Shown one piece after another: positions 25,626-46,404 of a stretch of 64,000 bases of DNA. Location of the stretch: the NCBI RefSeq assembly GCF_001677475.2, contig NZ_CP015229.1. The stretch is one strand, 5' to 3'. The translations under genes were made by a program, and so were the position numbers. Origin of the DNA: Escherichia coli. GTDB taxonomy: Bacteria; Pseudomonadota; Gammaproteobacteria; Enterobacterales; Enterobacteriaceae. The notes beneath the pieces are model-generated. The model had not been told where the DNA came from, searched no databases, and saw only the letters and a program-made list of their open reading frames with translations. The stretch's first letter is position 1; each line of letters opens with the position of its first letter.

Positions 25626-25876
25626 CCGTTGTGCGGGGAGTAATCCCCGCATATCCGGTTGTCAGGTCAGGGTGGTAAGGCACCTGCTTTACACTTTCGC
25701 CCGCGGTCAGCAATGGCTGCGGGCGATGTCGTTTTAAGGGCAATGATCAGTTTTGCCAACAGAAGTCCGAAACAGGATTCACTGTATAAATAAACAGCTA
25801 TTTTGCTGAGGAAGGGTAAGATAACGGCGGGTGCCTGAAGCTTTCCGGTTTCAGGTTAACTCTGAGGTCTGGAAAG

Positions 25877-26065
25877 ATGAAGCCCCAGGATGATATTTCT
25901 ATCAACCCTGGGGCTACCTACCCAAACCTGAACAATTTGGATGGTAGTCCCTTCTTCGCATGGAGGCAATATAAACATGCTGACGAAATATGCCCTTGTG
26001 GCAGTCATAGTGCTGTGTTTAACGGTGCTGGGATTTACGCTTCTGGTCGGAGACTCGCTGTGTGA
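25877..26065 (+). CDS. mok-like overlapping reading frame, copy 2
   Basis: 62-codon ORF ([12 protein letters not shown]...) starting upstream of and overlapping hok copy 2 in a different frame, the arrangement of mok in hok/sok systems; assignment rests on arrangement only. Confidence 0.45.
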
Positions 26066-26129
26066 GTTTACGGTGAAGGAACGTAATATTGAGTTTAAGG
26101 CTGTTCTCGCTTACGAACCGAAGAAGTAG
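25977..26129 (+). CDS. hokE: Hok-family membrane toxin, copy 2
   Basis: ATG at 25977; 50-aa product identical to copy 1. Confidence 0.85.
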
Positions 26130-26250
26130 CCGTTGTGCGGGGAGTAATCCCCGCATATCCGGTTGTCAGGTCAGGATGGTAAGGCACCTGCTTTACACTT
26201 TCGCCCGTGGTCAGTGATGGCTGCGGGCGAATCGTACCAGATGTTGTCAA

Positions 26251-26871
26251 TTAATCGTGTTGGCACAGCGTTATGACTATTTTTTCTTTTATCTGCCAGT
26301 GCACAGCAAACTGCTCATCCTCTAGTCGAATGATGATCTGCTGTTTATTCCAGCTAATTATCTGATAATCCAGAAAACCTTGAGCGGCCTGTATCTTGCT
26401 TGCCTTAAATGCGCTCTCTTTGGCGGAAAATGCCAGTGTCAGCGCCAGAGAAAAGGTTAAACCGCATTCTGCGAGTCGCTCGTGTTCTGCTGGTGTAATA
26501 ATGTTGTCTGTCAATTCTCTTGCGGTTTGTACAGAGAAAATCTCTTCGATATCAATGCCAATCGGTTGACGAGTTACCACGGCTAATGCCGTAGCCCCAC
26601 AGTGGCTAATACTGCCGTATACCTCCGCAGGCCACACAGGTTGGCGTAGCTCGCCGATTGCGGGCACACATTTATAGCCATATTCCCGCAGCGCATAAAC
26701 TGCAGCGATCCGTCCGGCTAAATGCTCTGTTTTACGTTTACGTCCAGCGTGTTGCAGTTGTGCGTAGTGCGGCAGCCAGAGTAAATCCTGCTCGCGAAAA
26801 CTCGCCGGATCAAACTCAACAAAATGCAGCGTATGTCCTGCAAAGGGGAGGGAGGTATGCGTAGTTTTCAT
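26251..26871 (-). CDS. entD: Enterobactin synthase 4'-phosphopantetheinyl transferase EntD
   Basis: Start trimmed to MKTTHTSLPFAGHTLHF (cat at 26869..26871); 206 aa. Confidence 0.9.
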   Translation of the reverse strand: MKTTHTSLPFAGHTLHFVEFDPASFREQDLLWLPHYAQLQHAGRKRKTEHLAGRIAAVYALREYGYKCVPAIGELRQPVWPAEVYGSISHCGATALAVVTRQPIGIDIEEIFSVQTARELTDNIITPAEHERLAECGLTFSLALTLAFSAKESAFKASKIQAAQGFLDYQIISWNKQQIIIRLEDEQFAVHWQIKEKIVITLCQHD

Positions 26872-26908
26872 GTCGACCATATTAGAGAATGATGACAAAC
26901 GCAAAACT

Positions 26909-27006
26909 GCCTGATGCGCTACGCTTATCAGGCCTACGTGGTCCTGCAATATATTGAATTGGCAAGATTTTGTAGGCCGGATAAGGCGTTCACGCCGCAT
27001 CCGGCA
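26909..27006. repeat. REP/BIME element (two inverted REP units) between entD and fepA
   Basis: gcctgatgcgctacgcttatcaggcctac ... tgtaggccggataaggcgttcacgccgcatccggca; classic enterobacterial REP sequences. Confidence 0.75.
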
Positions 27007-27044
27007 TGAACGACGCGCACTTTGTCAACAATCTGACGTTAGCA

Positions 27045-29285
27045 TCAGAAGTGAGTATTAACGCTCATATACCACGTACGTCCCGGCTCGTTATAGGTAT
27101 ACGCCCCGGCACCTGCGATATAGTTGGCTCCTGCCAGATCGCCCGTGGTCTGGGCATTGCCCGCACGCCACAAACGCTTATCGAATAGGTTGTCCACGCC
27201 GCCGGTCAGACTGACATTCTTCGTCACATCCCAGGTCGCGCTCAGGCCAACAATGCTGTAAGGACTAATTTCTTTGGTTTCCGGTCCAACCGCTGGCTGG
27301 CCTTTATAGTTGTACTTCTTCGGCTGCTGCTTGCCGTACCAGGTGAAGGTCGTTTGCATCGACAAATCTTCCCGTGCCTGCCAGCTCAGCGTTGAGTTCA
27401 ACGTATACTCCGGGATGATCGACAAACGGTCGCCCGTGGTTTTGTTTTCACTCTTCAGCATATAAGTGATGTTATTGGTCCACATCACCGTTTCGCTAAC
27501 CGGTACGTTTAACGATCCTTCCAGGCCTTCAACCACTGCTTTCGGCACGTTATCCCACTGATAGAGATCGGTGCCGACTGCGTTTTGTCCTACAGCCACA
27601 TAGCCCGCTTCAATCTTATTGCGATAATCGTTACGGAACCATGTGACGCCCGCCAGCCAGCCGTCGCGTTTGAACTCCAGACCAATCTCTTTGTTGATAC
27701 TGGTTTCCGCTTTCAGGTCATCGTTCCCTTGCAGATAGCAGCCGCCCGCGCTGGCATAGCAGCCCTGACCTTTACTGTAGAGAATGTAGTTCGGGTTAGT
27801 CTGGTACAGGCTCGGCGCTTTATAGGCGCGGGCAATGCCCATTTTCAGCGTGAAGTCATCGCCTAAACCTTGCGATATGTTCAGCGCCGGGCTCCAGTTA
27901 TTGCCGACAATACTGTGATGATCGAAACGCAGCCCCGGCGTTACGATGGTGCTGTCAGTCAGCTCCATGTTGTTTTCGGCAAACAGCGAGAAAATTTCTG
28001 CTTTTGAATACGGGCTACGGTCGGTGGCACTCACGCCATCAATAGCGCCACCGGTATTCGTTCCGGTCAGTGCCTGGGTGTTGGAACTTAAGTCCTTCAT
28101 CCGTTGCTGATTCCACTCCGTACCCAGCGTCAGCGTTTGGTTAACGAGGAAATCAATCGGCAGGTTAACTTCGCTGTGCAGCATCACGTCATCAAGATCG
28201 ATATCGACGAAATCCTGTGTCGCTTTTTCGTTAAATTTCCCTTCGGTACCACCCGCCAGACCTTCCGGAATACGCGAGTTACGGGTGTGTTCGTACTGCA
28301 CCCAGTTGCTGGTGGTCACGCCGTTATCCCAGCCACCGTTCCAGGTCAGCGAGTAGTTCTGGCGATACAGGCGGTTGGTTTCATCGCCATATTTCGAGCG
28401 AGTGTAAGCGTCAGAGTTGGTGTTCTGGGTATCGCCCGCATACAGGTTACCCTGGCGGCTGTAACCCGCTTCCAGTTCGAGTGATTGCAGAGGCGCGAAG
28501 TCCCAGCGCACCACGCCATTAATATCTTTGTTGATCACCCCTTCGCGCCCGGCTGGTAACGTCGTGGCATACGTTCCGGCACGCGCGGACTGATGACCCT
28601 GGTTGATATCCCACGCGTCAGCCTGGGTTTTGTCGAGGTTGCCATACAAGCGGAAGCTGAATTCGTCGCCCAGCGGACCGGTCAGGCTGAAGTTGGTGCG
28701 TTTAGTGGCACCTTCCTCTTTATGTTCTGGCGCATTGAAATAAGCGTCCCAGGAGCCGTGCCACTCACCGCTGCCTTTTTTGGTAATGATGTTAACCACG
28801 CCGCCCGCCGCGCCGTTGCCGTAACGCGCAGCTGCCGGACCACGCAGAACTTCAATACGTTCAATCATTTCAGGTGGCACCCAGGAAGTATCACCACGGG
28901 TATCGCGCTCTCCACGCCAGCCCTGACGCACCGAGTTACGGCTGCTGACCGGTTTGCCGTCAATTAAAATCAGCGTGTTTTCCGGACCCATGCCGCGAAT
29001 ATCAATCTGGCGGTTATTACCACGCTGACCACTGGTGGAGTTACCGGTCAGGTTAACGCCTGGCATGGTACGGATAATCTCCGACACATCGCGGGCAACC
29101 GGGTTTTTGCGGATTTCATCTGCGGTGATGGTCGAAACGCCAGGCGCCTGCAAGTTCTGCTCGGCGGCGGTAACGACAATAGTATCGTCATGTGAAACAG
29201 GAGTATCGGTCGGCTCTTGTGCCTGCGCTACCCCATAAATCCCCAGATTGACCAACAAGGCCAGGGAATGAATCTTCTTGTTCAT
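27045..29285 (-). CDS. fepA: TonB-dependent ferric enterobactin outer membrane receptor FepA
   Basis: Start trimmed to MNKKIHSLALLVNLGIYGVAQA (cat at 29283..29285); C-terminal ...YMSVNTHF. Confidence 0.95.
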   Translation of the reverse strand: MNKKIHSLALLVNLGIYGVAQAQEPTDTPVSHDDTIVVTAAEQNLQAPGVSTITADEIRKNPVARDVSEIIRTMPGVNLTGNSTSGQRGNNRQIDIRGMGPENTLILIDGKPVSSRNSVRQGWRGERDTRGDTSWVPPEMIERIEVLRGPAAARYGNGAAGGVVNIITKKGSGEWHGSWDAYFNAPEHKEEGATKRTNFSLTGPLGDEFSFRLYGNLDKTQADAWDINQGHQSARAGTYATTLPAGREGVINKDINGVVRWDFAPLQSLELEAGYSRQGNLYAGDTQNTNSDAYTRSKYGDETNRLYRQNYSLTWNGGWDNGVTTSNWVQYEHTRNSRIPEGLAGGTEGKFNEKATQDFVDIDLDDVMLHSEVNLPIDFLVNQTLTLGTEWNQQRMKDLSSNTQALTGTNTGGAIDGVSATDRSPYSKAEIFSLFAENNMELTDSTIVTPGLRFDHHSIVGNNWSPALNISQGLGDDFTLKMGIARAYKAPSLYQTNPNYILYSKGQGCYASAGGCYLQGNDDLKAETSINKEIGLEFKRDGWLAGVTWFRNDYRNKIEAGYVAVGQNAVGTDLYQWDNVPKAVVEGLEGSLNVPVSETVMWTNNITYMLKSENKTTGDRLSIIPEYTLNSTLSWQAREDLSMQTTFTWYGKQQPKKYNYKGQPAVGPETKEISPYSIVGLSATWDVTKNVSLTGGVDNLFDKRLWRAGNAQTTGDLAGANYIAGAGAYTYNEPGRTWYMSVNTHF

Positions 29286-29444
29286 TGTTTTATTCCTGCA
29301 TTTTTGCCACGAATTGCAACTGTCGGGCATGGTCGTCATCAACACGACGCATCCCGCTACCGCGAAAACCTTTGATCCTGAAAGACACGCAGTGCAGTTG
29401 GTTAATTAATGTCCGCGCTTCCCACGGCGCGCCATTACGCTATT

Positions 29445-29495
29445 GCAAATGCAAATAGTTATCAATAATATTATCAATATATTTCTGCAATCAAT
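29445..29495. promoter_or_regulatory. Fur-box region in fepA-fes divergent promoter
   Basis: AT-rich gcaaatgcaaatagttatcaataatattatcaatat resembling GATAATGATAATCATTATC iron-box repeats. Confidence 0.6.
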
Positions 29496-29527
29496 GAAAA
29501 ATTGCACAGTAAACATGGGGTTATGGT

Positions 29528-30730
29528 GTGGCGGCGTTAAAAGTAGGAAGTGAGAGCTGGTGGCAGTCGAAACATGGCCCGGAATGGCAGCGTCTGAATG
29601 ACGAAATGTTTGAGGTCACTTTCTGGTGGCGTGATCCCCAAGGTTCTGAAGAATACTCGACGATAAAGCGCGTATGGGTCTACATCACTGGTGTGACCGA
29701 TCACCATCAGAACAGCCAGCCCCAGTCGATGCAGCGAATTGCAGGCACCAACGTCTGGCAGTGGACGACACAACTCAATGCCAACTGGCGCGGCAGCTAC
29801 TGTTTTATTCCCACCGAACGCGATGACATTTTTTCTGCACCATCACCCGATTGCCTCGAATTGCGCGAAGGCTGGCGAAAACTATTACCCCAGGCGATAG
29901 CCGATCCGCTGAATCCACAAAGCTGGAAAGGCGGGCGAGGGCACGCTGTTTCTGCACTCGAAATGCCGCAAGCGCCTCTGCAACCGGGATGGGATTGTCC
30001 GCAAGCGCCAGAAATACCTGCCAAAGAAATTATCTGGAAAAGTGAACGGTTGAAAAATTCACGCCGTGTATGGATTTTTACCACCGGCGATGCAACAGCA
30101 GAAGAACGCCCGCTGGCAGTTTTGCTTGATGGCGAATTTTGGGCGCAGTGTATGCCCGTCTGGCCTGGGCTGACTTCGCTGACCCATCGTCAGCAACTTC
30201 CTCCCGCCGTGTATGTGTTGATCGACGCTATCGACACCACGCACCGCGCCCACGAACTGACGTGTAATGCGGATTTCTGGCTGGCAGTACAGCAAGAGTT
30301 ATTACCCCTGGTGAAAGCTATTGCCCCTTTTAGCGATCGCGCCGATCGCACCGTGGTCGCCGGGCAGAGTTTTGGTGGGCTTTCCGCGCTGTATGCCGGA
30401 CTGCACTGGCCTGAACGCTTTGGCTGTGTATTAAGCCAGTCAGGATCGTACTGGTGGCCGCATCGGGGCGGGCAGCAAGAGGGCGTGTTACTTGAAAAGC
30501 TAAAAGCTGGTGGAGTTAGCGCCGAAGGTCTGCGCATTGTGCTGGAAGCGGGTATTCGCGAGCCGATGATTATGCGGGCCAATCAGGCGCTGTATGCGCA
30601 ATTACACCCCATAAAAGAATCCATTTTCTGGCGTCAGGTTGACGGCGGACATGATGCGCTTTGTTGGCGCGGTGGCTTGATGCAGGGGCTAATCGACCTC
30701 TGGCAACCACTTTTCCATGACAGGAGTTGA
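29528..30730 (+). CDS. fes: Enterochelin esterase Fes
   Basis: 400-aa ORF with GTG start as on ORF track; recalled Fes N-terminus ..ALKVGSESWWQSKHGPEW. Confidence 0.9.
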   Translation: MAALKVGSESWWQSKHGPEWQRLNDEMFEVTFWWRDPQGSEEYSTIKRVWVYITGVTDHHQNSQPQSMQRIAGTNVWQWTTQLNANWRGSYCFIPTERDDIFSAPSPDCLELREGWRKLLPQAIADPLNPQSWKGGRGHAVSALEMPQAPLQPGWDCPQAPEIPAKEIIWKSERLKNSRRVWIFTTGDATAEERPLAVLLDGEFWAQCMPVWPGLTSLTHRQQLPPAVYVLIDAIDTTHRAHELTCNADFWLAVQQELLPLVKAIAPFSDRADRTVVAGQSFGGLSALYAGLHWPERFGCVLSQSGSYWWPHRGGQQEGVLLEKLKAGGVSAEGLRIVLEAGIREPMIMRANQALYAQLHPIKESIFWRQVDGGHDALCWRGGLMQGLIDLWQPLFHDRS

Positions 30731-30732
30731 AT

Positions 30733-30951
30733 ATGGCATTCAGTAATCCCTTCGATGATCCACAGGGAGCGTTTTACATTTTGCGCAATGCGCAGGGTCA
30801 ATTCAGTCTGTGGCCGCAACAATGCGCCTTACCGGCAGGCTGGGACATTGTGTGTCAGCCGCAGTCACAAGAGTCCTGCCAGCAGTGGCTTGAAGCCCAC
30901 TGGCGTACTCTGACACCGGCGAATTTCACCCAGTTGCAGGAGGCGCAATGA
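30733..30951 (+). CDS. ybdZ: MbtH-like protein YbdZ
   Basis: ATG at 30733 (MAFSNPFDDPQGAFYIL...); 72 aa; overlaps entF start. Confidence 0.9.
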   Translation: MAFSNPFDDPQGAFYILRNAQGQFSLWPQQCALPAGWDIVCQPQSQESCQQWLEAHWRTLTPANFTQLQEAQ

Positions 30952-33900
30952 GCCAGCATTTACCTTTGGTCGCCGCACAGCCCGGCATCTGGATGGCAGA
31001 AAAACTGTCGGATTTACCCTCCGCCTGGAGCGTGGCGCATTACGTTGAGTTAACCGGAGAGGTTGATGCGCCATTACTGGCCCGCGCGGTGGTTGCCGGA
31101 TTAGCGCAAGCAGATACGTTGCGGATGCGTTTTACGGAAGATAACGGCGAAGTCTGGCAATGGGTTGATGATGCGCTGATATTCGAACTACCAGAAATTA
31201 TCGACCTGCGAACCAATATTGATCCGCACGGTACTGCGCGGGCATTAATGCAGGCGGATTTGCAACAAGATTTGCGCGTCGATAGCGGTAAACCACTGGT
31301 CTTTCATCAGCTGATACAGGTGGCGGATAACCGCTGGTACTGGTATCAGCGTTATCACCATTTGCTGGTCGATGGCTTCAGTTTCCCGGCCATTACCCGC
31401 CAGATCACCAATATTTACTGCACATTGCTGCGTGGTGAACCAACGCCTGCTTCGCCGTTTACGCCTTTCGCTGATGTAGTGGAAGAGTACCAGCAATACC
31501 GCGAAAGCGAAGCCTGGCAGCGTGATGCGGCATTCTGGGCAGAACAGCGTCGTCAACTGCCGCCGCCCGCGTCACTTTCTCCGGCACCTTTACCGGGGCG
31601 CAGCGCTTCGGCAGATATTTTGCGTCTGAAAATGGAATTTACCGACGGGGAATTCCGCCAGTTGGCTACGCAACTTTCAGGTGTGCAGCGTACCGATTTA
31701 GCCCTTGCGCTGACGGCTTTGTGGCTGGGGCGATTGTGCAACCGCATGGACTACGCCGCCGGATTTATCTTTATGCGTCGACTGGGCTCGGCGGCGTTGA
31801 CGGCTACCGGACCCGTGCTCAACGTTTTGCCGCTGGGTATTCATATTGTGGCGCAAGAAACGCTGCCGGAACTGGCAACCCGACTGGCAGCACAACTGAA
31901 AAAAATGCGTCGCCATCAACGTTACGATGCCGAACAAATTGTCCGTGACAGCGGGCGAGCGGCAGGTGATGAACCGCTGTTTGGTCCGGTACTCAATATT
32001 AAGGTATTTGATTACCATCTGGATATTCCTGGTGTTCAGACGCAAACCCATACCCTGGCAACCGGTCCGGTTAATGACCTTGAACTGGCCCTGTTCCCGG
32101 ATGAACACGGTGATTTGAGTATTGAAATCCTCGCCAATAAACAGCGTTACGCTGAGCCAACGTTAATCCAGCATGCTGAACGCCTGAAAATGCTGATCGC
32201 CCAGTTTGCCGCGGATCCGGCGCTGTTGTGCGGCGATGTCGATATTATGCTGCCAGGTGAGTATGCGCAGCTGGCGCAGATCAACGCCACTCAGGTTGAG
32301 ATTCCAGAAACCACGCTGAGCGCGCTGGTGGCAGAACAAGCGGCAAAAACACCGGATGCTCCGGCGCTGGTTGATGCGAGTTACCAGTTTAGCTATCGGG
32401 AAATGCGCGAGCAGGTGGTGGCGCTGGCGAATCTGCTGCGTGAGCGCGGCGTTAAACCGGGGGACAGCGTGGCGGTGGCACTACCGCGCTCGGTCTTTTT
32501 GACCCTGGCGCTACATGCGATAGTTGAAGCTGGCGCGGCCTGGCTACCGCTGGATACCGGCTATCCGGACGATCGCCTGAAAATGATGCTGGAAGATGCG
32601 CGTCCGTCGCTGTTAATCACCACCGACGATCAACTGCCGCGCTTTGCCGATGTTCCAGATTTAACCAACCTTTGCTATAACGCCCCGCTTACACCGCAGG
32701 GCAGTGCGCCGCTGCAACTTTCACAACCGCATCACACGGCTTATATCATCTTTACCTCTGGCTCCACCGGCAGGCCGAAAGGGGTAATGGTCGGGCAGAC
32801 GGCTATCGTTAACCGCCTGTTGTGGATGCAAAATCATTATCCGCTTACAGGCGAAGATGTCGTTGCCCAAAAAACGCCGTGCAGTTTTGATGTCTCGGTG
32901 TGGGAGTTTTTCTGGCCGTTTATTGCCGGGGCTAAACTGGTGATGGCTGAACCGGAAGCGCACCGCGACCCGCTCGCTATGCAGCAATTCTTTGCCGAAT
33001 ATGGCGTAACGACCACGCACTTTGTTCCCTCAATGCTGGCGGCATTTGTTGCATCGCTGACGCCGCAAACCGCTCGCCAGAGTTGCGTGACGTTGAAACA
33101 GGTTTTCTGTAGTGGTGAGGCCTTACCGGCTGATTTATGCCGCGAATGGCAACAGTTAACCAGCGTGCCGTTGCATAATCTATATGGCCCAACGGAAGCG
33201 GCGGTAGATGTCAGCTGGTATCCGGCTTTTGGCGAGGAACTGGCACAGGTGCGCGGCAGCAGTGTGCCGATTGGTTATCCGGTATGGAATACGGGTCTGC
33301 GTATTCTTGATGCGATGATGCATCCGGTGCCGCCGGGTGTGGCGGGTGATCTCTATCTCACCGGCATTCAACTGGCGCAGGGGTATCTTGGACGACCCGA
33401 TCTGACCGCCAGCCGTTTTATTGCCGATCCTTTTGCCCCAGGTGAACGGATGTACCGTACCGGAGACGTTGCCCGCTGGCTGGATAACGGCGCGGTGGAG
33501 TACCTCGGGCGCAGTGACGATCAGCTAAAAATTCGCGGGCAGCGTATCGAACTGGGCGAAATCGATCGCGTGATGCAGGCGCTGCCGGATGTCGAACAAG
33601 CCGTTACCCACGCCTGTGTGATTAACCTGGCGGCAGCCACCGGTGGTGATGCGCGTCAGTTGGTGGGCTATCTGGTGTCGCAATCAGGTCTGCCGTTGGA
33701 TACCAGCGCATTACAGGCACAGCTTCGCGAAACATTGCCGCCGCATATGGTGCCGGTCGTTCTGATGCAACTGCCGCAGTTGCCACTTAGCGCCAACGGC
33801 AAGCTGGATCGCAAAGCCTTACCGTTGCCTGAACTGAAGGCACAAGCGCCGGGACGTGCGCCGAAAGCGGGCAGTGAAACGATTATCGCCGCGGCATTCG

Positions 33901-34829
33901 CATCGTTGCTGGGTTGTGACGTGCAGGATGCCGATGCTGATTTCTTCACGCTTGGCGGTCACTCGCTACTGGCAATGAAACTGGCAGCGCAGTTAAGTCG
34001 ACAGTTTGCTCGTCAGGTGACGCCGGGGCAGGTGATGGTCGCGTCAACCGTCGCCAAACTGGCAACGATTATTGATGGTGAAGAAGACAGCTCCCGGCGC
34101 ATGGGATTCGAAACCATTCTGCCGTTGCGTGAAGGTAATGGCCCGACGCTGTTTTGTTTCCATCCGGCGTCCGGTTTTGCCTGGCAGTTTAGTGTGCTCT
34201 CGCGTTATCTCGATCCACAATGGTCGATTATTGGCATTCAGTCGCCGCGCCCTCATGGACCCATGCAGACAGCGACAAACCTGGATGAAGTCTGCGAAGC
34301 GCATCTGGCAACGCTACTTGAGCAACAACCGCACGGTCCTTATTACCTGCTGGGGTATTCCCTTGGCGGTACGCTGGCGCAGGGTATTGCGGCGCGACTG
34401 CGTGCCCGTGGCGAACAGGTGGTATTTCTTGGCTTGCTGGATACCTGGCCGCCAGAAACGCAAAACTGGCAGGAAAAAGAGGCTAATGCTCTGGACCCGG
34501 AAGTGCTGGCGGAGATTAACCGCGAACGCGAGGCCTTCCTGGCGGCACAGCAGGGAAGTACTTCAACGGAGTTGTTTACCACCATTGAAGGCAACTACGC
34601 TGATGCTGTGCGCCTGCTGACGACTGCTCATAGCGTACCGTTTGACGGTAAAGCGACGCTGTTTGTTGCTGAACGCACGCTTCAGGAAGGTATGAGTCCC
34701 GAACGCGCCTGGTCGCCGTGGATAGCGGAGCTGGATATCTATCGTCAGGATTGTGCGCATGTGGATATTATCTCTCCAGGGGCGTTTGAAAAAATTGGGC
34801 CGATTATTCGCACTACGCTAAACAGGTAA
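30948..34829 (+). CDS. entF: Enterobactin NRPS component EntF (C-A-PCP-TE)
   Basis: 1293-aa ORF; start overlaps ybdZ stop (ATGA). Confidence 0.95.
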   Translation: MSQHLPLVAAQPGIWMAEKLSDLPSAWSVAHYVELTGEVDAPLLARAVVAGLAQADTLRMRFTEDNGEVWQWVDDALIFELPEIIDLRTNIDPHGTARALMQADLQQDLRVDSGKPLVFHQLIQVADNRWYWYQRYHHLLVDGFSFPAITRQITNIYCTLLRGEPTPASPFTPFADVVEEYQQYRESEAWQRDAAFWAEQRRQLPPPASLSPAPLPGRSASADILRLKMEFTDGEFRQLATQLSGVQRTDLALALTALWLGRLCNRMDYAAGFIFMRRLGSAALTATGPVLNVLPLGIHIVAQETLPELATRLAAQLKKMRRHQRYDAEQIVRDSGRAAGDEPLFGPVLNIKVFDYHLDIPGVQTQTHTLATGPVNDLELALFPDEHGDLSIEILANKQRYAEPTLIQHAERLKMLIAQFAADPALLCGDVDIMLPGEYAQLAQINATQVEIPETTLSALVAEQAAKTPDAPALVDASYQFSYREMREQVVALANLLRERGVKPGDSVAVALPRSVFLTLALHAIVEAGAAWLPLDTGYPDDRLKMMLEDARPSLLITTDDQLPRFADVPDLTNLCYNAPLTPQGSAPLQLSQPHHTAYIIFTSGSTGRPKGVMVGQTAIVNRLLWMQNHYPLTGEDVVAQKTPCSFDVSVWEFFWPFIAGAKLVMAEPEAHRDPLAMQQFFAEYGVTTTHFVPSMLAAFVASLTPQTARQSCVTLKQVFCSGEALPADLCREWQQLTSVPLHNLYGPTEAAVDVSWYPAFGEELAQVRGSSVPIGYPVWNTGLRILDAMMHPVPPGVAGDLYLTGIQLAQGYLGRPDLTASRFIADPFAPGERMYRTGDVARWLDNGAVEYLGRSDDQLKIRGQRIELGEIDRVMQALPDVEQAVTHACVINLAAATGGDARQLVGYLVSQSGLPLDTSALQAQLRETLPPHMVPVVLMQLPQLPLSANGKLDRKALPLPELKAQAPGRAPKAGSETIIAAAFASLLGCDVQDADADFFTLGGHSLLAMKLAAQLSRQFARQVTPGQVMVASTVAKLATIIDGEEDSSRRMGFETILPLREGNGPTLFCFHPASGFAWQFSVLSRYLDPQWSIIGIQSPRPHGPMQTATNLDEVCEAHLATLLEQQPHGPYYLLGYSLGGTLAQGIAARLRARGEQVVFLGLLDTWPPETQNWQEKEANALDPEVLAEINREREAFLAAQQGSTSTELFTTIEGNYADAVRLLTTAHSVPFDGKATLFVAERTLQEGMSPERAWSPWIAELDIYRQDCAHVDIISPGAFEKIGPIIRTTLNR

Positions 34830-34844
34830 ATTAATATTATCTAT

Positions 34845-34890
34845 AAACCCATAATTACAGAAAATAATTATGGGTTTGTTATTTATTTTA
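34845..34890 (+). terminator. Rho-independent terminator after entF
   Basis: Perfect 12-bp stem aaacccataatt / aattatgggttt with 9-nt loop, followed by T-rich tract. Confidence 0.6.
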
Positions 34891-35044
34891 TTTATAAGTT
34901 TAGTGGTTATTTCTCTTAAATAGAATGAATGTTGCATTCAGTGGAAGGAATTTACAAACTTCAGCTTCGGATAATTCTCACCAACTGGTAAAGTGAGCGC
35001 CGTGGAGATTTTCCCCTATTGGACTCATTTTCAGGTTATACCCC

Positions 35045-36178
35045 ATGTCATCACTGAATATTAAACAGGGAAGTGACGCTCATTTTCCTGAGTATCCTCT
35101 GGCGTCGCCCAGTAATAATGAAATTGATTTACTTAATCTAATCGAAGTTTTATGGCGGGCCAAAAAAACGGTCATGGCGGTCGTTTTTGCATTTGCCTGC
35201 GCAGGTTTACTGATCTCTTTCATCCTGCCGCAAAAATGGACCAGCTCAGCCGTTATTACTCCCGCCGAAGCCATTCAGTGGCAGGACCTGGAGAAAACCT
35301 TTACCAAACTCCGCGTTCTTGATCTCGATGTTAATATCGACCGTGGCGGTGCATTTAACCTGTTTATCAAGAAGTTTCAGTCGGTTAGCTTGCTGGAAGA
35401 GTACCTACGTTCATCACCTTATGTGATGGACCAATTAAAAGAGGCGAAAATCGACGAACTGGATTTGCATCGCGCAATTGTCGCATTGAGCGAAAAAATG
35501 AAAGCGGTTGATGACAATGCCAGTAAGAAAAAAGATGAACCGTCACTGTATACCTCCTGGACGCTAACTTTTACCGCACCAACCAGTGAAGAAGCGAAGA
35601 CCGTTTTGAGCGGGTATATCGATTATATCTCTGCGTTGGTGGTGAAAGAGTCGATAGAAAACGTCCGTAATAAACTGGAGATCAAAACCCAGTTTGAAAA
35701 AGAAAAACTGGCTCAGGATCGCATTAAAACGAAAAATCAACTTGATGCAAACATTCAGCGCCTCAATTATTCACTCGACATTGCCAACGCGGCAGGAATT
35801 AAAAAGCCCGTATACAGTAATGGTCAGGCCGTTAAAGATGACCCCGATTTCTCTATTTCTCTCGGCGCAGACGGTATTGAACGCAAACTGGAAATTGAAA
35901 AAGCGGTCACTGACGTTGCGGAACTGAACGGTGAATTACGTAATCGTCAGTATCTTGTTGAGCAGTTAACAAAAGCAAATATCAACGATGTGAATTTTAC
36001 GCCATTTAAATATCAGTTAAGCCCGTCATTGCCAGTGAAAAAAGACGGTCCGGGTAAGGCGATTATTGTGATCCTTTCCGCGTTGATCGGCGGAATGGTG
36101 GCTTGTGGTGGCGTGCTGTTGCGCCATGCGATGGCATCCAGAAAACAGGATGCCATGATGGCAGACCACTTAGTTTAA
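35045..36178 (+). CDS. fepE: Polysaccharide chain-length regulator (Wzz-like) FepE
   Basis: 377-aa ORF with N- and C-terminal TM segments. Confidence 0.9.
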   Translation: MSSLNIKQGSDAHFPEYPLASPSNNEIDLLNLIEVLWRAKKTVMAVVFAFACAGLLISFILPQKWTSSAVITPAEAIQWQDLEKTFTKLRVLDLDVNIDRGGAFNLFIKKFQSVSLLEEYLRSSPYVMDQLKEAKIDELDLHRAIVALSEKMKAVDDNASKKKDEPSLYTSWTLTFTAPTSEEAKTVLSGYIDYISALVVKESIENVRNKLEIKTQFEKEKLAQDRIKTKNQLDANIQRLNYSLDIANAAGIKKPVYSNGQAVKDDPDFSISLGADGIERKLEIEKAVTDVAELNGELRNRQYLVEQLTKANINDVNFTPFKYQLSPSLPVKKDGPGKAIIVILSALIGGMVACGGVLLRHAMASRKQDAMMADHLV

Positions 36179-36990
36179 ATATTTGCGGTTGAAGGTGCCG
36201 TTCGTCCGAGCGGCACCACGAGCGGCGTTCCGGCTACCGGATCGTCAATTATCATGCAGCGCAGACCATAAATGCGCTCGATCAATTCAGCAGTGACAAT
36301 CTCCTTCGGCGCTCCCTGAGCAATAATTTTCCCTTCCCGCAATGCAATCAAATGGCTGGCGTAACGACAGGCCTGGTTAAGATCGTGCAGCACTGCCGCC
36401 AGGGTATAGCCTTTCTCACGGTTCAGTTCGCTCAACAGTTCCAGTAGATCAATCTGATGACTGATATCCAGCCAGGTCGTTGGTTCGTCGAGCAGCATAA
36501 TTGCCGTTTCCTGGGCCAGCACCATCGCGATCCACGCTCGCTGGCGTTGTCCACCAGAAAGGGTATCCACGCTTTGATTTGCCAGATGAGTTATTCCCGT
36601 GGCCTGCATCGCTTTCGTTACCGCTTCTTCATCTTCTTTGCGCCAGCGGGTAAACAGCGGTTGATGCGGGTAACGTCCACGCGCCACCAGCTCCTGCACG
36701 GTGATATCGCCCGGCGTGGTAGCATTTTGCGCCAACAGACCAATCCGGCGTGCAACCTCTTTACTGGCGTAATGTTGAATGTGCTCACCATCCAGCCAGA
36801 CATGCCCGTGAGCAGGCGTCATCAGGCGGCTTAAAGTACGCAGTAAAGTGGATTTACCGCAGCCATTTGGCCCGATAATTGCCGTGAAGTGACCATCAGG
36901 TATTTCTACAGTCAGATTTTCCGCAACGGTATATTTGCCATATCCGAGGGTTAACTGTTCGCCGCGCAAACGGGCTACTGATTCGGTCAT
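36175..36990 (-). CDS. fepC: Ferric enterobactin ABC transporter ATPase FepC
   Basis: Start trimmed to MTESVARLRGEQL (cat at 36988..36990); Walker A GPNGCGKST; 271 aa. Confidence 0.95.
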   Translation of the reverse strand: MTESVARLRGEQLTLGYGKYTVAENLTVEIPDGHFTAIIGPNGCGKSTLLRTLSRLMTPAHGHVWLDGEHIQHYASKEVARRIGLLAQNATTPGDITVQELVARGRYPHQPLFTRWRKEDEEAVTKAMQATGITHLANQSVDTLSGGQRQRAWIAMVLAQETAIMLLDEPTTWLDISHQIDLLELLSELNREKGYTLAAVLHDLNQACRYASHLIALREGKIIAQGAPKEIVTAELIERIYGLRCMIIDDPVAGTPLVVPLGRTAPSTANI

Positions 36991-37979
36991 TTTTTGCGAG
37001 ACTCCTGAATTAACAAGACGATAAGGTAAATACCGCCGAGGCTGACGGTAACGACGCCAACCGGAAGTTGATACGGCATAAACAGTTGTTGGGCGCAGAG
37101 ATCGGCCGCCAGCAGTAACAGCGCCCCGCACAGCGCCGCCTGGGTCAGCCCCCAGCGAGCGGTGCCGCTAATGCGTCGGGCAATGTGCGGCGCGACTAAA
37201 GCAATAAAGGAAATCGGCCCGGCAAGCGCTGTTGCCGCAGCGGTAAGCACCACTGCAACCAGCATCATTAATAGACGCGAACGTTCGACGCTGACGCCCA
37301 GCGCACACGCGGTATCATCGCCCATCTCCAGCAAGCGCATTCGCCGCACCAGTAAGGCGGCGGCAATGAGCATCAATATAATGATGGGGGCGGAAGGCGA
37401 GGTTTTTGCCCACGTCAGGCCGTTGAGCGATCCGGCATTCCACAAACCTGCTGTTAGCGCCGTTTCTAAAGACGCTTTCAGCAACAGCCAGGTATTAAAG
37501 GCCACCAGCATGGCGCGAACACCGATACCGATAATAATCAACCGAAAGGTGTCGATGCCGTTACGCCAGGCGAGCAGCCAGACCAACAGCGAAGTGACAA
37601 TGCCGCCCATCATTGCTGCCAGCGCGATAGCCGTCAGGTCCTGACCAAACAGCACCATCGCCACCAGCACGCCGCTCCACGCCCCGGTGTTAAAACCCAT
37701 TACGTCAGGGCTGCCGAGCGGGTTACGCATCAGCGACTGAAAAATCGCGCCGCTGACGCCCAGCGCCGCGCCAATCAACAGCGCCATCAGCACGCGTGGT
37801 AAACGCCATTCGGTGACCACCATCGTCATACTGCGCGGCGCATCGCCCATCAGCGCGGCGAATACCTGCGAGGTTTCCAGCGTGACGGCACCGCTGCGTA
37901 ATCCCCAGATACCTGCAACCACACAGGCGGAAATCAGCAGCAAACAGGTGATGAGTAATCGGCGAGAGACGTAAATCAT
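36987..37979 (-). CDS. fepG: Ferric enterobactin ABC transporter permease FepG
   Basis: 330-aa ORF; 4-nt overlap with fepC start. Confidence 0.95.
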   Translation of the reverse strand: MIYVSRRLLITCLLLISACVVAGIWGLRSGAVTLETSQVFAALMGDAPRSMTMVVTEWRLPRVLMALLIGAALGVSGAIFQSLMRNPLGSPDVMGFNTGAWSGVLVAMVLFGQDLTAIALAAMMGGIVTSLLVWLLAWRNGIDTFRLIIIGIGVRAMLVAFNTWLLLKASLETALTAGLWNAGSLNGLTWAKTSPSAPIIILMLIAAALLVRRMRLLEMGDDTACALGVSVERSRLLMMLVAVVLTAAATALAGPISFIALVAPHIARRISGTARWGLTQAALCGALLLLAADLCAQQLFMPYQLPVGVVTVSLGGIYLIVLLIQESRKK

Positions 37980-38980
37980 GCACCACCTCGCGTTTTACGT
38001 CGCACGAGGAAGATTAGCACCGGTGCACCAATAAACGCACTGACCACAGAAACGCGCAACTCGCCGGGCACAATCACCCGCCCGATGATATCGGCAAACA
38101 GCAGCAGGGCAGGGGTGGCGAGTAGCGTGACGGGCAGCGACCAGCGATGATCGGCACCCACCAGCCAACGCGCCATATGCGGCATCATCAGGCCAATAAA
38201 GGCAATCGGGCCAACTACCGCTGTCGCACTACCACAAAGCACGGTAATCGCCAGCAGACCAATTAACTGTGTGCGCGCCACGCGACTGCCCAGCGCCGTC
38301 GCGGTGTCGCTGCCGAGGCTTAAACTGTTCAGTGCGCGGCTCAGTAATAGCGCGGTTGCTCCGGCGACCAGCACCGGGATCAGCACCACTTTTAAGGTAT
38401 GTAGATTGCGAATATCCAGCGAACCGGCTTGCCAGAAACGTAGTTGATCGTAGACGTCAGGATTAAGCAGGGCGATGCCGCTGGTCAGCCCTTCCAGCAC
38501 CGCCGCCAGCGCCACGCCCGCCAGGGTTAAACGCACCGGACTTAACTGCCCGCCGCCCTGGCTGCCGGTAAAGGCAACAATCAACGAGGCCACCAGCGCC
38601 CCGGCGAAGGCCATCGCCAGTTGTTCCTGTGCGGAAGAGTAACCAAACAGCGCCGCACCCAGCACAATGGCAAAGCTGGCTCCGGCGTTCACGCCAAGCA
38701 AGCCGGGGTCGGCAAGTGGATTTCGGGTGAGGGTTTGCATCAACGCCCCGGCAAGGCCAAGCGCGCCGCCTGCAAGTAAACCGGCAAGGGTGCGCGGCAG
38801 TCGCGCGTCGAGCACGATGGTGCAGTCGGCGCTCTGACAGGTGCCGGAGAGGGCCTCCAGCACTACGGAAGCGGGGAGTGATTTTGCCCCAATGAGCAGG
38901 CTTAATGCCGTCGCGATAATCAGTAATAACAGCAATCCGGGCACGGCAATGGCGCGTGTCACGGCAACAGAACCAGACAT
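37976..38980 (-). CDS. fepD: Ferric enterobactin ABC transporter permease FepD
   Basis: Start trimmed to MSGSVAVTRAIAV; 334 aa; 4-nt overlap with fepG start. Confidence 0.95.
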   Translation of the reverse strand: MSGSVAVTRAIAVPGLLLLLIIATALSLLIGAKSLPASVVLEALSGTCQSADCTIVLDARLPRTLAGLLAGGALGLAGALMQTLTRNPLADPGLLGVNAGASFAIVLGAALFGYSSAQEQLAMAFAGALVASLIVAFTGSQGGGQLSPVRLTLAGVALAAVLEGLTSGIALLNPDVYDQLRFWQAGSLDIRNLHTLKVVLIPVLVAGATALLLSRALNSLSLGSDTATALGSRVARTQLIGLLAITVLCGSATAVVGPIAFIGLMMPHMARWLVGADHRWSLPVTLLATPALLLFADIIGRVIVPGELRVSVVSAFIGAPVLIFLVRRKTRGGA

Positions 38981-38992
38981 ACGAACTTCCAT

Positions 38993-39017
38993 GATAATGA
39001 AATTAATTATCGTTATC
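38993..39017. promoter_or_regulatory. Putative Fur box in fepD-entS divergent promoter
   Basis: gataatgaaattaattatcgttatc between fepD start (38980) and entS start (39091). Confidence 0.5.
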
Positions 39018-39090
39018 GATCTTATTTGGATATGTTAGCATGTGCAGCCTAAGAATAGGTATTTAAAATATTTGATGGCAAGGCATTGTA

Positions 39091-40341
39091 ATGAATAAAC
39101 AATCCTGGCTGCTTAACCTCAGCCTGTTGAAAACGCACCCGGCGTTTCGCGCAGTATTCCTCGCTCGTTTTATCTCAATTGTGTCTCTGGGTTTGCTCGG
39201 CGTCGCGGTACCGGTGCAGATCCAGATGATGACGCATTCTACCTGGCAGGTGGGGCTTTCGGTGACGCTGACCGGCGGCGCGATGTTTGTTGGCCTGATG
39301 GTCGGCGGTGTGCTGGCGGATCGCTATGAGCGCAAAAAAGTGATTTTACTGGCGCGCGGCACCTGTGGCATTGGCTTCATTGGACTGTGCCTGAATGCGC
39401 TGCTGCCGGAGCCGTCATTGCTGGCAATCTATTCACTCGGTTTATGGGATGGTTTTTTCGCATCGCTTGGCGTTACGGCGCTACTGGCGGCGACACCTGC
39501 ACTGGTAGGGCGTGAAAACCTAATGCAGGCCGGGGCGATCACCATGTTGACCGTGCGTCTGGGATCGGTGATTTCGCCCATGATTGGCGGTTTACTGCTG
39601 GCGACTGGCGGCATAGCCTGGAACTACGGGCTGGCGGCGGCGGGCACGTTTATTACCTTGCTACCGTTGTTAAGCCTTCCGGCGTTGCCACCGCCACCGC
39701 AGCCGCGTGAGCATCCGTTGAAATCATTACTGGCAGGATTTCGTTTTCTGCTCGCCAGCCCGCTGGTAGGAGGGATTGCGCTGCTGGGTGGTTTATTGAC
39801 GATGGCGAGCGCGGTGCGGGTACTGTATCCGGCGCTGGCTGACAACTGGCAGATGTCGGCGGCACAGATTGGTTTTCTCTATGCGGCGATCCCGCTCGGT
39901 GCGGCTATTGGCGCGTTAACCAGCGGGAAGCTGGCACATAGCGCGCGACCAGGGTTATTGATGTTGCTCTCCACGCTGGGATCGTTCCTCGCCATTGGTC
40001 TGTTTGGCCTGATGCCGATGTGGATTTTAGGCGTGGTTTGTCTGGCGCTGTTCGGCTGGCTGAGCGCGGTTAGTTCGTTGCTGCAATATACAATGCTGCA
40101 AACGCAAACCCCGGAAGCGATGTTAGGGCGGATTAACGGTTTGTGGACGGCGCAAAATGTGACGGGAGATGCCATAGGCGCGGCGCTGCTGGGCGGTTTG
40201 GGAGCGATGATGACACCGGTTGCTTCCGCAAGCGCGAGCGGTTTTGGTTTGTTGATTATCGGCGTGTTGTTGTTGCTGGTGCTGGTGGAGTTGCGACGTT
40301 TTCGCCAGACGCCGCCGCAGGTGACAGCGTCCGACAGTTAG
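39091..40341 (+). CDS. entS: Enterobactin exporter (MFS) EntS
   Basis: 416-aa ORF, polytopic membrane protein. Confidence 0.95.
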
Positions 40342-40354
40342 CTAAAGGTGCATT

Positions 40355-40399
40355 TTCCCCTCACCCTAACCCTCTCCCCAAAGGGGCGAGGGGACTGTT
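40355..40399. repeat. GC-rich palindromic intergenic repeat, copy 1 (family name uncertain)
   Basis: ttcccctcaccctaaccctctccccaaaggggcgaggggactgtt; imperfect palindrome; near-identical element at 48749..48794. Confidence 0.6.
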
Positions 40400-40421
40400 A
40401 GTGCTCTAATTTTATGTTTTA

Positions 40422-41387
40422 TCAATCTTTTTTAAACAGTGAATTAAGTCTGTCCAGCACTTGCATGGCGCTGTAGTAATCCAGGCGGAACGTCTCGGTT
40501 CCCAGCGCATAAACCTGCTTGTTTTGTACTGCGGGCAGGTGTGCGAGCAGCGGATTAGCATAAATAGCATCGGCGTCTTTCTGATCACCGGCGAACAGGA
40601 ATAGTGACTCGCCATTTAACCCTGCAGCCAGATTTTCCCCACCAAGCTGAATGATGTCATGGCGTTTGCCCTGGCTTTGGCTGGCGTTTAAGCCTGCGGG
40701 CAACTTCGCCAGCGTAAAGCCGAGTTGTTCCAGCATCTGCCCTTGTGCTGATTCCGGCGTCCAGAGATTGGCACTGTGTGCAGCGGCAGTATAGACAATG
40801 GCAGTGATCGGCTGCGGCGGTAATTTGATTTGCTCTTTCGCCGCTGCCAGTTGCTTATCAAACTGTGCAATCCGCTTTGCCGCTTGTTTCTCATGCCCGG
40901 TAATTTCGCCAAGCTGCGTTAACAGCGACTGCCAGCTTTTGTCGTCGTAATTGATGATTAATGTCGGGGCGATGGTAGAGAGCTGATCATACAGCGCCAG
41001 CGCCGAATCACCGCCGGTTGCGCTAATTAAAATCAGATCCGGCATTTGCGCGGCAACGGCTTCTGCACTCGGTTCGCCGATATAGAGCCGTTGCAGTTTG
41101 CGTTCTGTCGCCACCTTGCTCCACTGGCGTAAAAAGCCCTGGTCATCCGCGACGCGGTTATTTGGCGTGGTCGCGCCGCTGGCGATCACCGGAGCATCAA
41201 TCGCCAGCAGTGAGCCGGTCAAGGTGACGCTGGTGGAAACAATACGCTGCGGCTGGCTTTCCAGGGTATGAGTGCCACGGCTGTCAGTAATCTGACGCGG
41301 CCAGTCGGCAGCCTGAACTACGGCTATTCCTGAAAGCAAAAGTCCTGTTAATAGAAGGGCGTTGCGGTAGAGCGAGGCGAGTCTCAC
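40422..41387 (-). CDS. fepB: Periplasmic ferric enterobactin-binding protein FepB
   Basis: 321-aa [29 protein letters not shown]... Confidence 0.95.
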
Positions 41388-41526
41388 AAATCAGCTTCCT
41401 GTTATTAATGAAGTTAATGCTTCTCATTTTCATTGTAACCACAACCAGATGCAACCCCGAGTTGCAGATTGCGTTACCTCAAGAGTTGACATAGTGCGCG
41501 TTTGCTTTTAGGTTAGCGACCGAAAA

Positions 41527-41547
41527 TATAAATGATAATCATTATTA
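41527..41547. promoter_or_regulatory. Fur box in fepB-entC divergent promoter
   Basis: ataaatgataatcattatt, close match to GATAATGATAATCATTATC. Confidence 0.65.
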
Positions 41548-41575
41548 AAGCCTTTATCATTTTGTGGAGGATGAT

Positions 41576-42751: not shown

Positions 42752-42760
42752 GGAGCGAGG

Positions 42761-44371: not shown

Positions 44372-44384
44372 AGGAGAGAACACG

Positions 44385-45241
44385 ATGGCTATTCCAAAAT
44401 TACAGGCTTACGCACTGCCGGAGTCTCACGATATTCCGCAGAATAAAGTCGACTGGGCCTTTGAACCGCAACGTGCCGCGTTGTTAATCCATGATATGCA
44501 GGACTATTTTGTCAGCTTCTGGGGCGAGAACTGCCCGATGATGGAGCAGGTGATCGCGAATATTGCGGCACTACGCGACTACTGCAAACAGCACAATATC
44601 CCGGTTTATTACACCGCCCAGCCGAAAGAGCAGAGCGATGAAGATCGGGCGCTGTTGAATGATATGTGGGGACCGGGCCTGACCCGTTCGCCGGAACAGC
44701 AAAAGGTGGTGGATCGCCTGACGCCAGATGCCGACGACACGGTGCTGGTGAAGTGGCGCTACAGCGCGTTTCATCGTTCTCCGCTGGAGCAAATGCTCAA
44801 AGAGAGTGGACGTAACCAGCTGATTATTACCGGGGTATATGCCCACATTGGCTGTATGACCACCGCAACCGACGCATTTATGCGCGATATTAAACCGTTT
44901 ATGGTGGCGGATGCGCTGGCCGATTTCAGCCGTGACGAGCATTTGATGTCGCTGAAATATGTGGCTGGACGTTCTGGCCGGGTGGTGATGACCGAAGAAT
45001 TACTGCCAGCACCTATCCCCGCCAGCAAAGCGGCGCTGCGTGAGGTTATCCTGCCGTTGCTGGACGAGTCCGATGAACCGTTCGATGATGACAACCTGAT
45101 CGACTACGGTTTGGATTCGGTGCGCATGATGGCGCTGGCGGCGCGCTGGCGCAAAGTACATGGCGATATCGACTTTGTCATGCTGGCGAAAACCCCAACC
45201 ATTGATGCCTGGTGGAAACTGCTCTCCCGCGAGGTGAAATA

Positions 45242-45242
<1 letters not shown>
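44385..45242 (+). CDS. entB: Isochorismatase / aryl carrier protein EntB
   Basis: 285-aa ORF; stop overlaps entA start (TAATG). Confidence 0.95.

Positions 45243-46404
<1,162 letters not shown>

What the first reader, a model, noticed from the sequence alone, without database searches (positions are those of the whole stretch)
29445..29495. Iron-box (Fur) repeats in the fepA-fes divergent promoter
An AT-rich run with tandem hexamer-like repeats resembling the Fur consensus lies between the divergent fepA and fes starts, as expected for iron-regulated siderophore genes. Exact operator boundaries are not determinable by eye.
Basis: partly seen in the sequence, partly recalled or inferred. Interest (0 to 1): 0.15.

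Follow-up and report, generated by a model that had tools for sequence, protein, structure and literature searches.

The report
Known Fur operator between fepA–fes
This AT-rich stretch is the long-known binding site where the iron sensor protein Fur shuts off two back-to-back enterobactin genes (fepA and fes); it is real and base-for-base identical to the E. coli K-12 site, so it is ordinary.

Summary
The window is an Escherichia enterobactin cluster. fepA runs on the minus strand from its ATG at 29285, and fes runs on the plus strand from a GTG at 29528. The 242-bp spacer between them is identical to E. coli K-12. I built a Fur weight matrix from 15 K-12 Fur sites that lie outside the window. 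Its three best hits in 64 kb are the three known ent-cluster operators. The fepA-fes site, AATGCAAATAGTTATCAAT at 29448-29466, scores 18.3 bits and ranks third. In-phase sites follow at +6 bp (2.4 bits) and +12 bp (9.1 bits). Only 5 of 5000 dinucleotide shuffles of the spacer reach 18.3 bits. The published DNase I footprint maps to 29436-29483. In 103 fepA-fes loci from about 30 genera of Enterobacterales, the same or a near-identical 19-mer is always the best site, about 72 bp before fes. The conserved block is 29430-29484. The boxes cover the overlapping -10 hexamers of both promoters, so one operator represses both genes. Novelty: already known. Interest: very low.

The parts
29436..29483 (.). 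Fur-protected region: the K-12 DNase I footprint transferred to window coordinates
   Evidence: Chen 2007 Table 3 gives 611868-611915 in NC_000913.2. The offset is fixed by fepA ATG 611717(.2)/612494(.3) = window 29285. The sequence is identical to K-12. The offset is cross-checked by the fepD-entS site, 621437 -> 39005, which is my second-best PWM hit.
29448..29466 (.). Primary Fur box AATGCAAATAGTTATCAAT (a 9-1-9 inverted repeat, centre 29457)
   Evidence: 18.3 bits with the independent PWM, rank 3 in the window. It matches 15 of 18 positions of the 9-1-9 consensus and 12 of 14 of the 7-1-7 consensus. The same or a near-identical 19-mer is the best site in all 103 fepA-fes loci examined.
29454..29472 (.). 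Weak in-phase Fur site (+6 bp, centre 29463)
   Evidence: 2.4 bits. The 6-bp phasing is as described for overlapping Fur dimers in Chen 2007.
29460..29478 (.). Secondary Fur box TATCAATAATATTATCAAT (+12 bp, centre 29469)
   Evidence: 9.1 bits, rank 15 in the window. It is present at +12 in most of the related loci. The TTATCAATA direct repeat with a 12-bp period fits this spacing.
29465..29470 (-). fepA promoter -10 hexamer TATTAT
   Evidence: Found by the consensus scan. Schmidt et al. 2023 give the fepA promoter as TTGCAG-14-TATTAT, silent in wild type and active in a fur deletion and in vitro.
29485..29490 (-). fepA promoter -35 hexamer TTGCAG (the tool's scan prefers TTGATT at 29494-29489 with an 18-nt spacer)
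   Evidence: paper; scan. The assignment of the -35 is not settled by my data.
29443..29448 (+). Putative fes promoter -35 TTGCAA
   Evidence: My inference from the sequence: TTGCAA, a 17-nt spacer, then TAATAT, matching 8 of 12 consensus positions, which is below the scan's threshold. These positions are 100% conserved across 102 distinct sequences. The transcription starts are reported to be 19 bp apart with the promoters almost completely overlapping.
29466..29471 (+). Putative fes promoter -10 TAATAT, overlapping the fepA -10 on the other strand
   Evidence: Inference from the sequence. It is consistent with the overlap stated.
29430..29484 (.). Block conserved across about 30 genera of Enterobacterales
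   Evidence: The majority base is present in at least 80% of 102 distinct sequences at most columns, and in at least 95% at 29437-29451, 29453-29456, 29459-29467 and 29470-29472. Conservation collapses after 29484.
27045..29285 (-). fepA coding sequence (ferric enterobactin outer-membrane receptor), first gene of fepA-entD
   Evidence: ORF list and alignment to the annotated K-12 fepA.
29528..30730 (+). fes coding sequence (enterochelin esterase), first gene of fes-ybdZ-entF
   Evidence: ORF list and the K-12 annotation, where fes at L001 3329 corresponds to window 29528.

Best explanation
This is the single shared Fur operator of the bidirectional fepA-fes promoter. When iron is plentiful, Fe2+-loaded Fur dimers bind a phased array of overlapping 19-bp sites centred at 29457, 29463 and 29469, protecting roughly 29436-29483. 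That array covers the -10 hexamers of both promoters, which overlap each other on opposite strands (29465-29471), and also the putative fes -35. RNA polymerase is therefore shut out of both promoters together, and fepA-entD and fes-ybdZ-entF are repressed in step. When iron is scarce, Fur loses its metal and releases the DNA, and both operons are transcribed. Shown here: the sequence match, its statistical strength, its identity to the footprinted K-12 sequence, and its near-invariance across genera at a fixed distance from fes. Taken from papers: physical protection by Fur, Fur-dependent silencing of the fepA promoter, and transcription starts 19 bp apart. Inferred: the exact fes -35 and -10 hexamers, the number of dimers bound, and steric exclusion of polymerase as the mechanism.
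For: (1) A PWM from 15 K-12 Fur sites outside the window ranks the three known ent-cluster operators first, second and third in 64 kb. fepA-fes scores 18.3 bits at 29448-29466, with further sites at +6 and +12 bp. (2) In shuffles, 5 of 5000 (spacer), 23 of 5000 (AT-rich core) and 3 of 100 (whole window) reach 18.3 bits. (3) The spacer is identical to K-12, and the published footprint and Chen's strongest site map onto my hit. (4) All 103 divergent fepA-fes loci from about 30 genera, with Fes N-termini down to 43% identity, have their best site at 15.4 bits or more. It is the same or a near-identical 19-mer, at a median of 72 bp before fes. The conserved block 29430-29484 nearly coincides with the footprint. 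(5) The 17-nt fes spacer (29449-29465), which RNA polymerase does not read base by base, is on average about 95% conserved (values). (6) The promoters overlap the boxes. The fepA promoter is silent in wild type but active in a fur deletion and in vitro. (7) fep and ent genes belong to the core Fur regulon of nine E. coli strains by ChIP-exo and expression. (8) The 71-bp operator is 100% identical in 4830 of 5413 complete E. coli genomes.
Against: Nothing contradicts this reading. There are caveats. The classical 19-mer consensus matches only 13 of 19 positions here and gave no hit at up to 3 mismatches. The alignment register of my 15 training sites comes from Chen's model, which itself included fepA-fes among its 24 training sites, so the PWM is not fully independent. 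The cross-genus sequences were anchored on their best PWM hit, which inflates conservation inside the 19 columns, though not in the flanks. The primary papers (Hunt 1994, Escolar 1998) could not be read, so the footprint limits are second-hand. No binding or expression was measured for this strain.
Confidence: 0.97

Rival explanations
1. The block is conserved only because two sigma-70 promoters overlap there. The resemblance to a Fur box is a by-product of AT-rich -10 hexamers, and Fur acts elsewhere or indirectly.
For: The -10 hexamers of both promoters lie inside the block. AT-rich DNA raises chance PWM scores: 23 of 5000 shuffles of the core reach 18.3 bits, against 5 of 5000 for the whole spacer.
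Against: The best-conserved bases include the fes spacer and the region around the fepA start (29449-29465, about 95% conserved), which polymerase does not read specifically. The primary box at 29448-29466 lies mostly outside the -10 hexamers. A footprint exists on the identical sequence. The promoter is active in vitro and in a fur deletion but silent in wild type.
Confidence: 0.02
2. The AT-rich tract is mainly a target for another DNA-binding protein, either a nucleoid protein such as H-NS, Fis or IHF or another Fur-family regulator such as Zur. Fur would be secondary.
For: The tract is 23% G+C, the kind of DNA that nucleoid proteins prefer. My tools cannot exclude additional binders.
Against: The sequence is conserved base for base, not merely in composition, across about 30 genera. 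It scores as well as proven Fur sites and ranks with the two other ent-cluster operators. The literature assigns the footprint and the regulation to Fur. No matrix for Zur or nucleoid proteins was run.
Confidence: 0.01

Closest known systems
[quoted passage not shown]
   Same: The sequence is identical over the whole 242-bp spacer, with the same flanking genes and orientation. The footprint and the strongest predicted site map onto my PWM hit.
   Different: Nothing differs in the operator. The surrounding window is only about 97% identical to K-12, and fes codon 2 is GCG (Ala) instead of ACG (Thr).
The two other Fur operators of the same cluster: fepD-entS and fepB-entC
   Same: Both are divergent iron-regulated promoters with clusters of overlapping Fur sites at 3- or 6-bp phasing. 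In this window they score 19.65 bits (centre 39005) and 24.8 bits (centre 41540), with the fepB-side sites at 11.0 and 9.8 bits.
   Different: In fepB-entC the two sides have separate footprints. In fepA-fes a single protected region serves both promoters, because the promoters themselves overlap.
Classical 19-bp 'iron box' GATAATGATAATCATTATC and its later readings as NATWAT hexamers, 7-1-7 or 9-1-9 repeats
   Same: The hexamer array and the 9-1-9 symmetry are present.
   Different: Only 13 of 19 positions match the classical consensus. The 9-1-9 matrix describes the site much better, as Chen 2007 argue in general.

Membership tests
Fur operator (iron box) | Sequence match to a Fur binding matrix or consensus, above chance | tested here: met
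   18.3 bits, rank 3 of about 64,000 positions. 5 of 5000 spacer shuffles reach it. 15 of 18 to the 9-1-9 consensus and 12 of 14 to the 7-1-7 consensus. The classical 19-mer matches only 13 of 19.
Fur operator (iron box) | Cluster of overlapping sites phased by 6 bp (or 3 bp), allowing several dimers to bind | tested here: met
   Positive scores at centres 29457, 29463 and 29469. This is the phasing rule of Chen 2007.
Fur operator (iron box) | Overlap with the core promoter elements of the regulated gene(s) | tested here: met
   The fepA -10 TATTAT at 29470-29465 lies inside the boxes. The fes hexamers are my inference. The transcription starts are 19 bp apart.
Fur operator (iron box) | Located upstream of iron-acquisition genes | tested here: met
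   fepA (receptor) and fes (esterase) flank it, and the rest of the ent/fep cluster follows.
Fur operator (iron box) | Evolutionary conservation of the site at orthologous promoters | tested here: met
   103 of 103 divergent fepA-fes loci have their best site at 15.4 bits or more, at a fixed distance from fes. The conserved block is 29430-29484.
Fur operator (iron box) | Physical binding or protection by metal-loaded Fur | not testable with these tools
   Literature only: a DNase I footprint on the identical K-12 sequence, as listed in Chen 2007 Table 3. The primary papers are not held.
Fur operator (iron box) | Iron- and Fur-dependent expression of the flanking genes | not testable with these tools
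   Literature only: the fepA start site appears only in a fur deletion and in vitro, and fep/ent are in the core Fur regulon of nine strains.
Fur operator (iron box) | A fur gene in the same genome | not tested
   In K-12, fur lies about 98 kb from fepA by the coordinates, beyond the end of this window.

The most novel reading that the evidence does not exclude
The conserved block extends left of the Fur boxes. Next to it, in the fepA leader, lies a G+C-rich inverted repeat: CGCGC at 29414-29418 and GCGCG at 29427-29431. That is about +27 to +45 of the fepA mRNA and about -47 to -64 relative to the inferred fes start. It is sequence-conserved in most Enterobacteriaceae, and in Rahnella and Hafnia a hairpin of different sequence sits at the same place. 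It could be a separate cis-element, either a 5' hairpin that stabilises or regulates the fepA mRNA or a site for an unidentified co-regulator of both promoters. From my own recollection of the Hunt 1994 abstract, which I could not check, such a further component was hinted at.
Probability: 0.12. Interest if true: 0.3.

Novelty: already known. Interest (0 to 1): 0.04.

Why it matters
It matters little as a discovery. This is one of the original footprinted Fur sites used to define the Fur binding model. Its value here is as a calibration point: the first-stage reader placed a known operator to within about 10 bp by eye, and a simple independent matrix recovers all three ent-cluster operators as its top three hits in the window. 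The only addition is a documented observation that the primary 19-mer and its roughly 55-bp context are almost invariant across about 30 genera of Enterobacterales, at a fixed distance from fes.

Tried and rejected
(1) The classical 19-mer consensus with up to 3 mismatches gave one hit in the window, at fepD-entS, and none in the finding's interval. I dropped it as too blunt a test, since the best match here is 13 of 19. (2) I tried to read Hunt 1994 (PMC205592), Escolar 1998 (PMC107206) and the Escolar 1999 review (PMC103753). None is held, so the footprint limits come from Chen 2007. (3) An Rfam scan of 29150-29650 at E-value up to 1 found no known RNA family. (4) I tested the hairpin in the fepA leader. 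An RNAalifold consensus over the first 62 nt found essentially nothing. Per-sequence folding of 72 distinct leaders gave a median z of -0.69, with 24% below -2, and several genera lack the hairpin. The evidence is mixed, so I make no claim. (5) The Fur-like hit of 14.5 bits at 2912-2930 sits at the convergent 3' ends of a fimbrial gene and a LuxR-type regulator gene in very AT-rich DNA. I treat it as chance. (6) The promoter scan found only the fepA-side promoter, no more than expected from shuffles (1 found against 1.0 expected). It therefore supports the promoter positions only in combination with the papers.

Full report
**What is there.** The interval lies in the 242-bp spacer between two divergent genes. 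fepA is on the minus strand, 27045-29285, with its ATG at 29285. fes is on the plus strand, 29528-30730, with a GTG start. A 421-bp query around the spacer matches 5414 of 5426 complete E. coli genomes, always under the annotations fepA and fes. Aligned to K-12 MG1655, the spacer is identical. The single difference in the 421 bases is 29531, G instead of A, which changes fes codon 2 from Thr to Ala.

**Checking the observation.** The run is AT-rich: 29436-29500 is 23% G+C against 52% for the window.
- GCAAAT occurs twice in tandem at 29445-29456, followed by A, GTTATC, AATAAT, ATTATC and AATATA. These match GATAAT or its complement at 4, 4, 5, 5, 6 and 4 of 6 positions.
- TTATCAATA occurs twice with a 12-bp period (29459-29467 and 29471-29479).
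- The whole tract is an imperfect 21-nt palindrome centred on 29469/29470.

The classical 19-mer with up to 3 mismatches does not hit the interval, and its best match is 13 of 19. I therefore built a proper matrix.
- Chen et al. 2007 (PMC2189734) list the centre coordinates of Fur sites in K-12.
- I fetched 15 of them that lie outside this window: fhuA, gpmA, fiu, sufA, cir, mntH, exbB, bfd, ryhB, sodA, fecI, fecA, fhuF, yoeA and nohA.
- For 12 of the 15 I checked the coordinate shift between genome versions against the stated distance to the gene start. For fiu, cir and nohA no gene start lay in the fetched stretch, so I assumed the same offsets.
- The result is a symmetric 19-column matrix with consensus AATGATAATCATTATCATT and 20.9 bits of information.

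Across the 64 kb the top three hits are the three known operators of the cluster:
- entC at centre 41540, 24.8 bits;
- fepD-entS at centre 39005, 19.65 bits;
- fepA-fes at centre 29457, 18.3 bits, sequence AATGCAAATAGTTATCAAT at 29448-29466.

In phase with the fepA-fes hit are 29463 (2.4 bits) and 29469 (9.1 bits).

The significance of 18.3 bits was tested in several ways.
- From window base composition, 0.018 such hits are expected in 64 kb.
- Among dinucleotide shuffles, 5 of 5000 of the spacer reach that score.
- 23 of 5000 shuffles of the AT-rich core alone reach it.
- 3 of 100 shuffles of the whole window reach it.

One caveat applies. The register of my training sites comes from Chen's model, which had fepA-fes among its 24 training sites. 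The consensus counts are free of that dependence: 15 of 18 to the 9-1-9 form and 12 of 14 to the 7-1-7 form.

**Comparison with the footprint.** Chen's Table 3 gives the DNase I footprint attributed to Hunt et al. 1994 as 611868-611915 in NC_000913.2. It gives the strongest predicted site as 611889, at 18.7 bits. With the fepA ATG at 611717 in version 2 and 612494 in version 3, equal to window 29285, these map to 29436-29483 and 29457. The second figure is exactly my best hit. The same offset places Chen's fepD-entS site (621437) on my second-best hit (39005), which validates the mapping. The fepB-entC sites are displaced by 100 bp because this window differs from K-12 by insertions and deletions there. 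I could not read Hunt 1994 or Escolar 1998 themselves.

**Evidence from other genomes.** I scanned one genome per species (GTDB) with a degenerate pattern for a conserved FepA peptide, QNLQAPGV-TIT. The pattern is in coding sequence and so does not depend on the operator.
- Of the 120 loci returned, 103 have fes divergently adjacent. They come from about 30 named genera, from Citrobacter and Salmonella to Serratia, Rahnella, Hafnia, Erwinia, Pantoea and Tatumella.
- Fes N-terminal identity to the window ranges from 90% down to 43%.
- In every one of the 103, the best Fur score in the spacer is at least 15.4 bits, with a median of 18.3.
- The best site is the same 19-mer or a close variant such as AATGAAAATAATTATCAAT.
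- It lies at a median of 72 bp before the fes start (interquartile range 70-73).

Stacked on that site, 102 distinct sequences show a conserved block at 29430-29484, close to the footprint. Identity is at least 95% at 29437-29451, 29453-29456, 29459-29467 and 29470-29472, and conservation collapses after 29484. Anchoring on the best hit inflates conservation within the 19 columns, but not in the flanks, which are conserved as well. Within E. coli, the 71 bp at 29425-29495 are 100% identical in 4830 of 5413 genomes. Against K-12 the window averages 3% divergence, yet 29152-29748 carries a single mismatch in 597 bp.

**How it works.** The consensus scan finds a minus-strand promoter with -10 TATTAT at 29470-29465. 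Schmidt et al. 2023 describe the fepA promoter as TTGCAG-14-TATTAT, undetectable in wild type but active in a fur deletion and in vitro. For fes I infer TTGCAA (29443-29448), a 17-nt spacer, then TAATAT (29466-29471). This matches 8 of 12 consensus positions, which is below the scan's threshold. Masulis et al. 2015, citing Pettis 1988, state that the two transcription starts are 19 bp apart and that the promoters overlap almost completely. That fits these hexamers.

The Fur boxes at 29448-29478 thus cover both -10 hexamers and the fes -35. One array of Fur dimers would exclude polymerase from both promoters, giving coordinated repression when iron is plentiful. ChIP-exo and expression data place the fep and ent genes in the core Fur regulon of nine E. 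coli strains. The sequence evidence is shown here. Binding and regulation come from the literature. The fes hexamers, the number of dimers and steric exclusion are inferred.

**Rival explanations.** Conservation caused by the promoters alone is unlikely. The fes spacer (29449-29465) is about 95% conserved, and most of the primary box lies outside the -10 hexamers. A different main binder, such as a nucleoid protein or another Fur-family regulator, is not excluded as an extra. It would not explain base-for-base conservation, the PWM rank, or the published Fur footprint.

**Comparison with what is known, and novelty.** This is the K-12 fepA-fes Fur operator itself, one of the eleven footprinted sites used to build the Fur model. 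It meets every membership feature I could test. Binding and iron-dependent expression rest on papers. It is already known and the interest is very low. The most novel reading left open concerns the neighbouring G+C-rich inverted repeat in the fepA leader (29414-29431), for which my tests were mixed.

Noticed in passing
whole window; 26000-46000 tested: The window is only about 97% identical to K-12 and to every complete E. coli genome in RefSeq; the best match is 97.1% over 20 kb. It is about 93% identical to a GTDB representative labelled E. coli (L033) and about 90% to E. albertii (L021). It therefore seems to come from an Escherichia lineage just outside the sampled E. coli diversity.
   Followed up: partly
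29152-29748: There is a single mismatch to K-12 in 597 bp, where about 18 would be expected at the local 3% divergence. The quiet zone covers the spacer, both leaders and the first codons of both genes, so it extends beyond the Fur operator.
   Followed up: partly
29531: fes codon 2 is GCG (Ala) instead of ACG (Thr). None of the 15 listed top E. coli hits is identical over the 421-bp query; all are 99.8%.
   Followed up: no
29414-29431 (fepA leader, about +27 to +45 of the mRNA): G+C-rich inverted repeat CGCGC...GCGCG. Most Enterobacteriaceae have CGCGCT-GTGGGA-AGCGCG. Rahnella and Hafnia have a hairpin of different sequence (TGCCCA...TGGGCA) at the same place, and several genera have none. 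The median folding z-score is -0.69, with 24% of sequences below -2.
   Followed up: partly
29486-29506 (inferred fes leader): Perfect 6-nt inverted repeat TGCAAT/ATTGCA with 9 nt between the arms, soon after the inferred fes transcription start. It is not conserved in the ungapped cross-genus stack.
   Followed up: no
41415-41417 and 40340-40434: Relative to K-12, the fepB-entC spacer lacks about 180 bp, and there are about 90 extra bp between entS and fepB. This shifts the fepB and entC Fur sites by 100 bp from their K-12-derived positions.
   Followed up: partly
25647-26140: The IS4-like element (IS421 family) that K-12 carries next to entD is absent here. The hokE-side sequence is joined differently.
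   Followed up: no
1-3877: The window starts with chaperone-usher fimbrial genes (an usher C-terminal part and two fimbrial subunits), a response regulator of the LuxR family (2926-3621, minus strand) and tRNA-Arg(UCU) at 3801-3877, followed directly by the envY-like ORF at 3923-4684. The ompT and appY genes and the prophage remnant that K-12 carries beyond envY are absent from the window.
   Followed up: partly
2896-2930: A small cluster of Fur-PWM hits (14.5, 9.2 and 9.2 bits) in extremely AT-rich DNA, at the convergent stop codons of a fimbrial gene and the LuxR-type regulator gene. It is not in front of any gene and is probably chance.
   Followed up: partly
related loci L023, L039, L057, L084, L088, L090, L096, L099, L122, L132 and others: Many genera carry AATGAAAATAATTATCAAT (26.9 bits) where Escherichia, Citrobacter and Salmonella have AATGCAAATAGTTATCAAT (18.3 bits). 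The enteric version of the primary box is therefore a weaker match to the matrix. The C at 29452 creates the tandem TGCAAA repeat.
   Followed up: no
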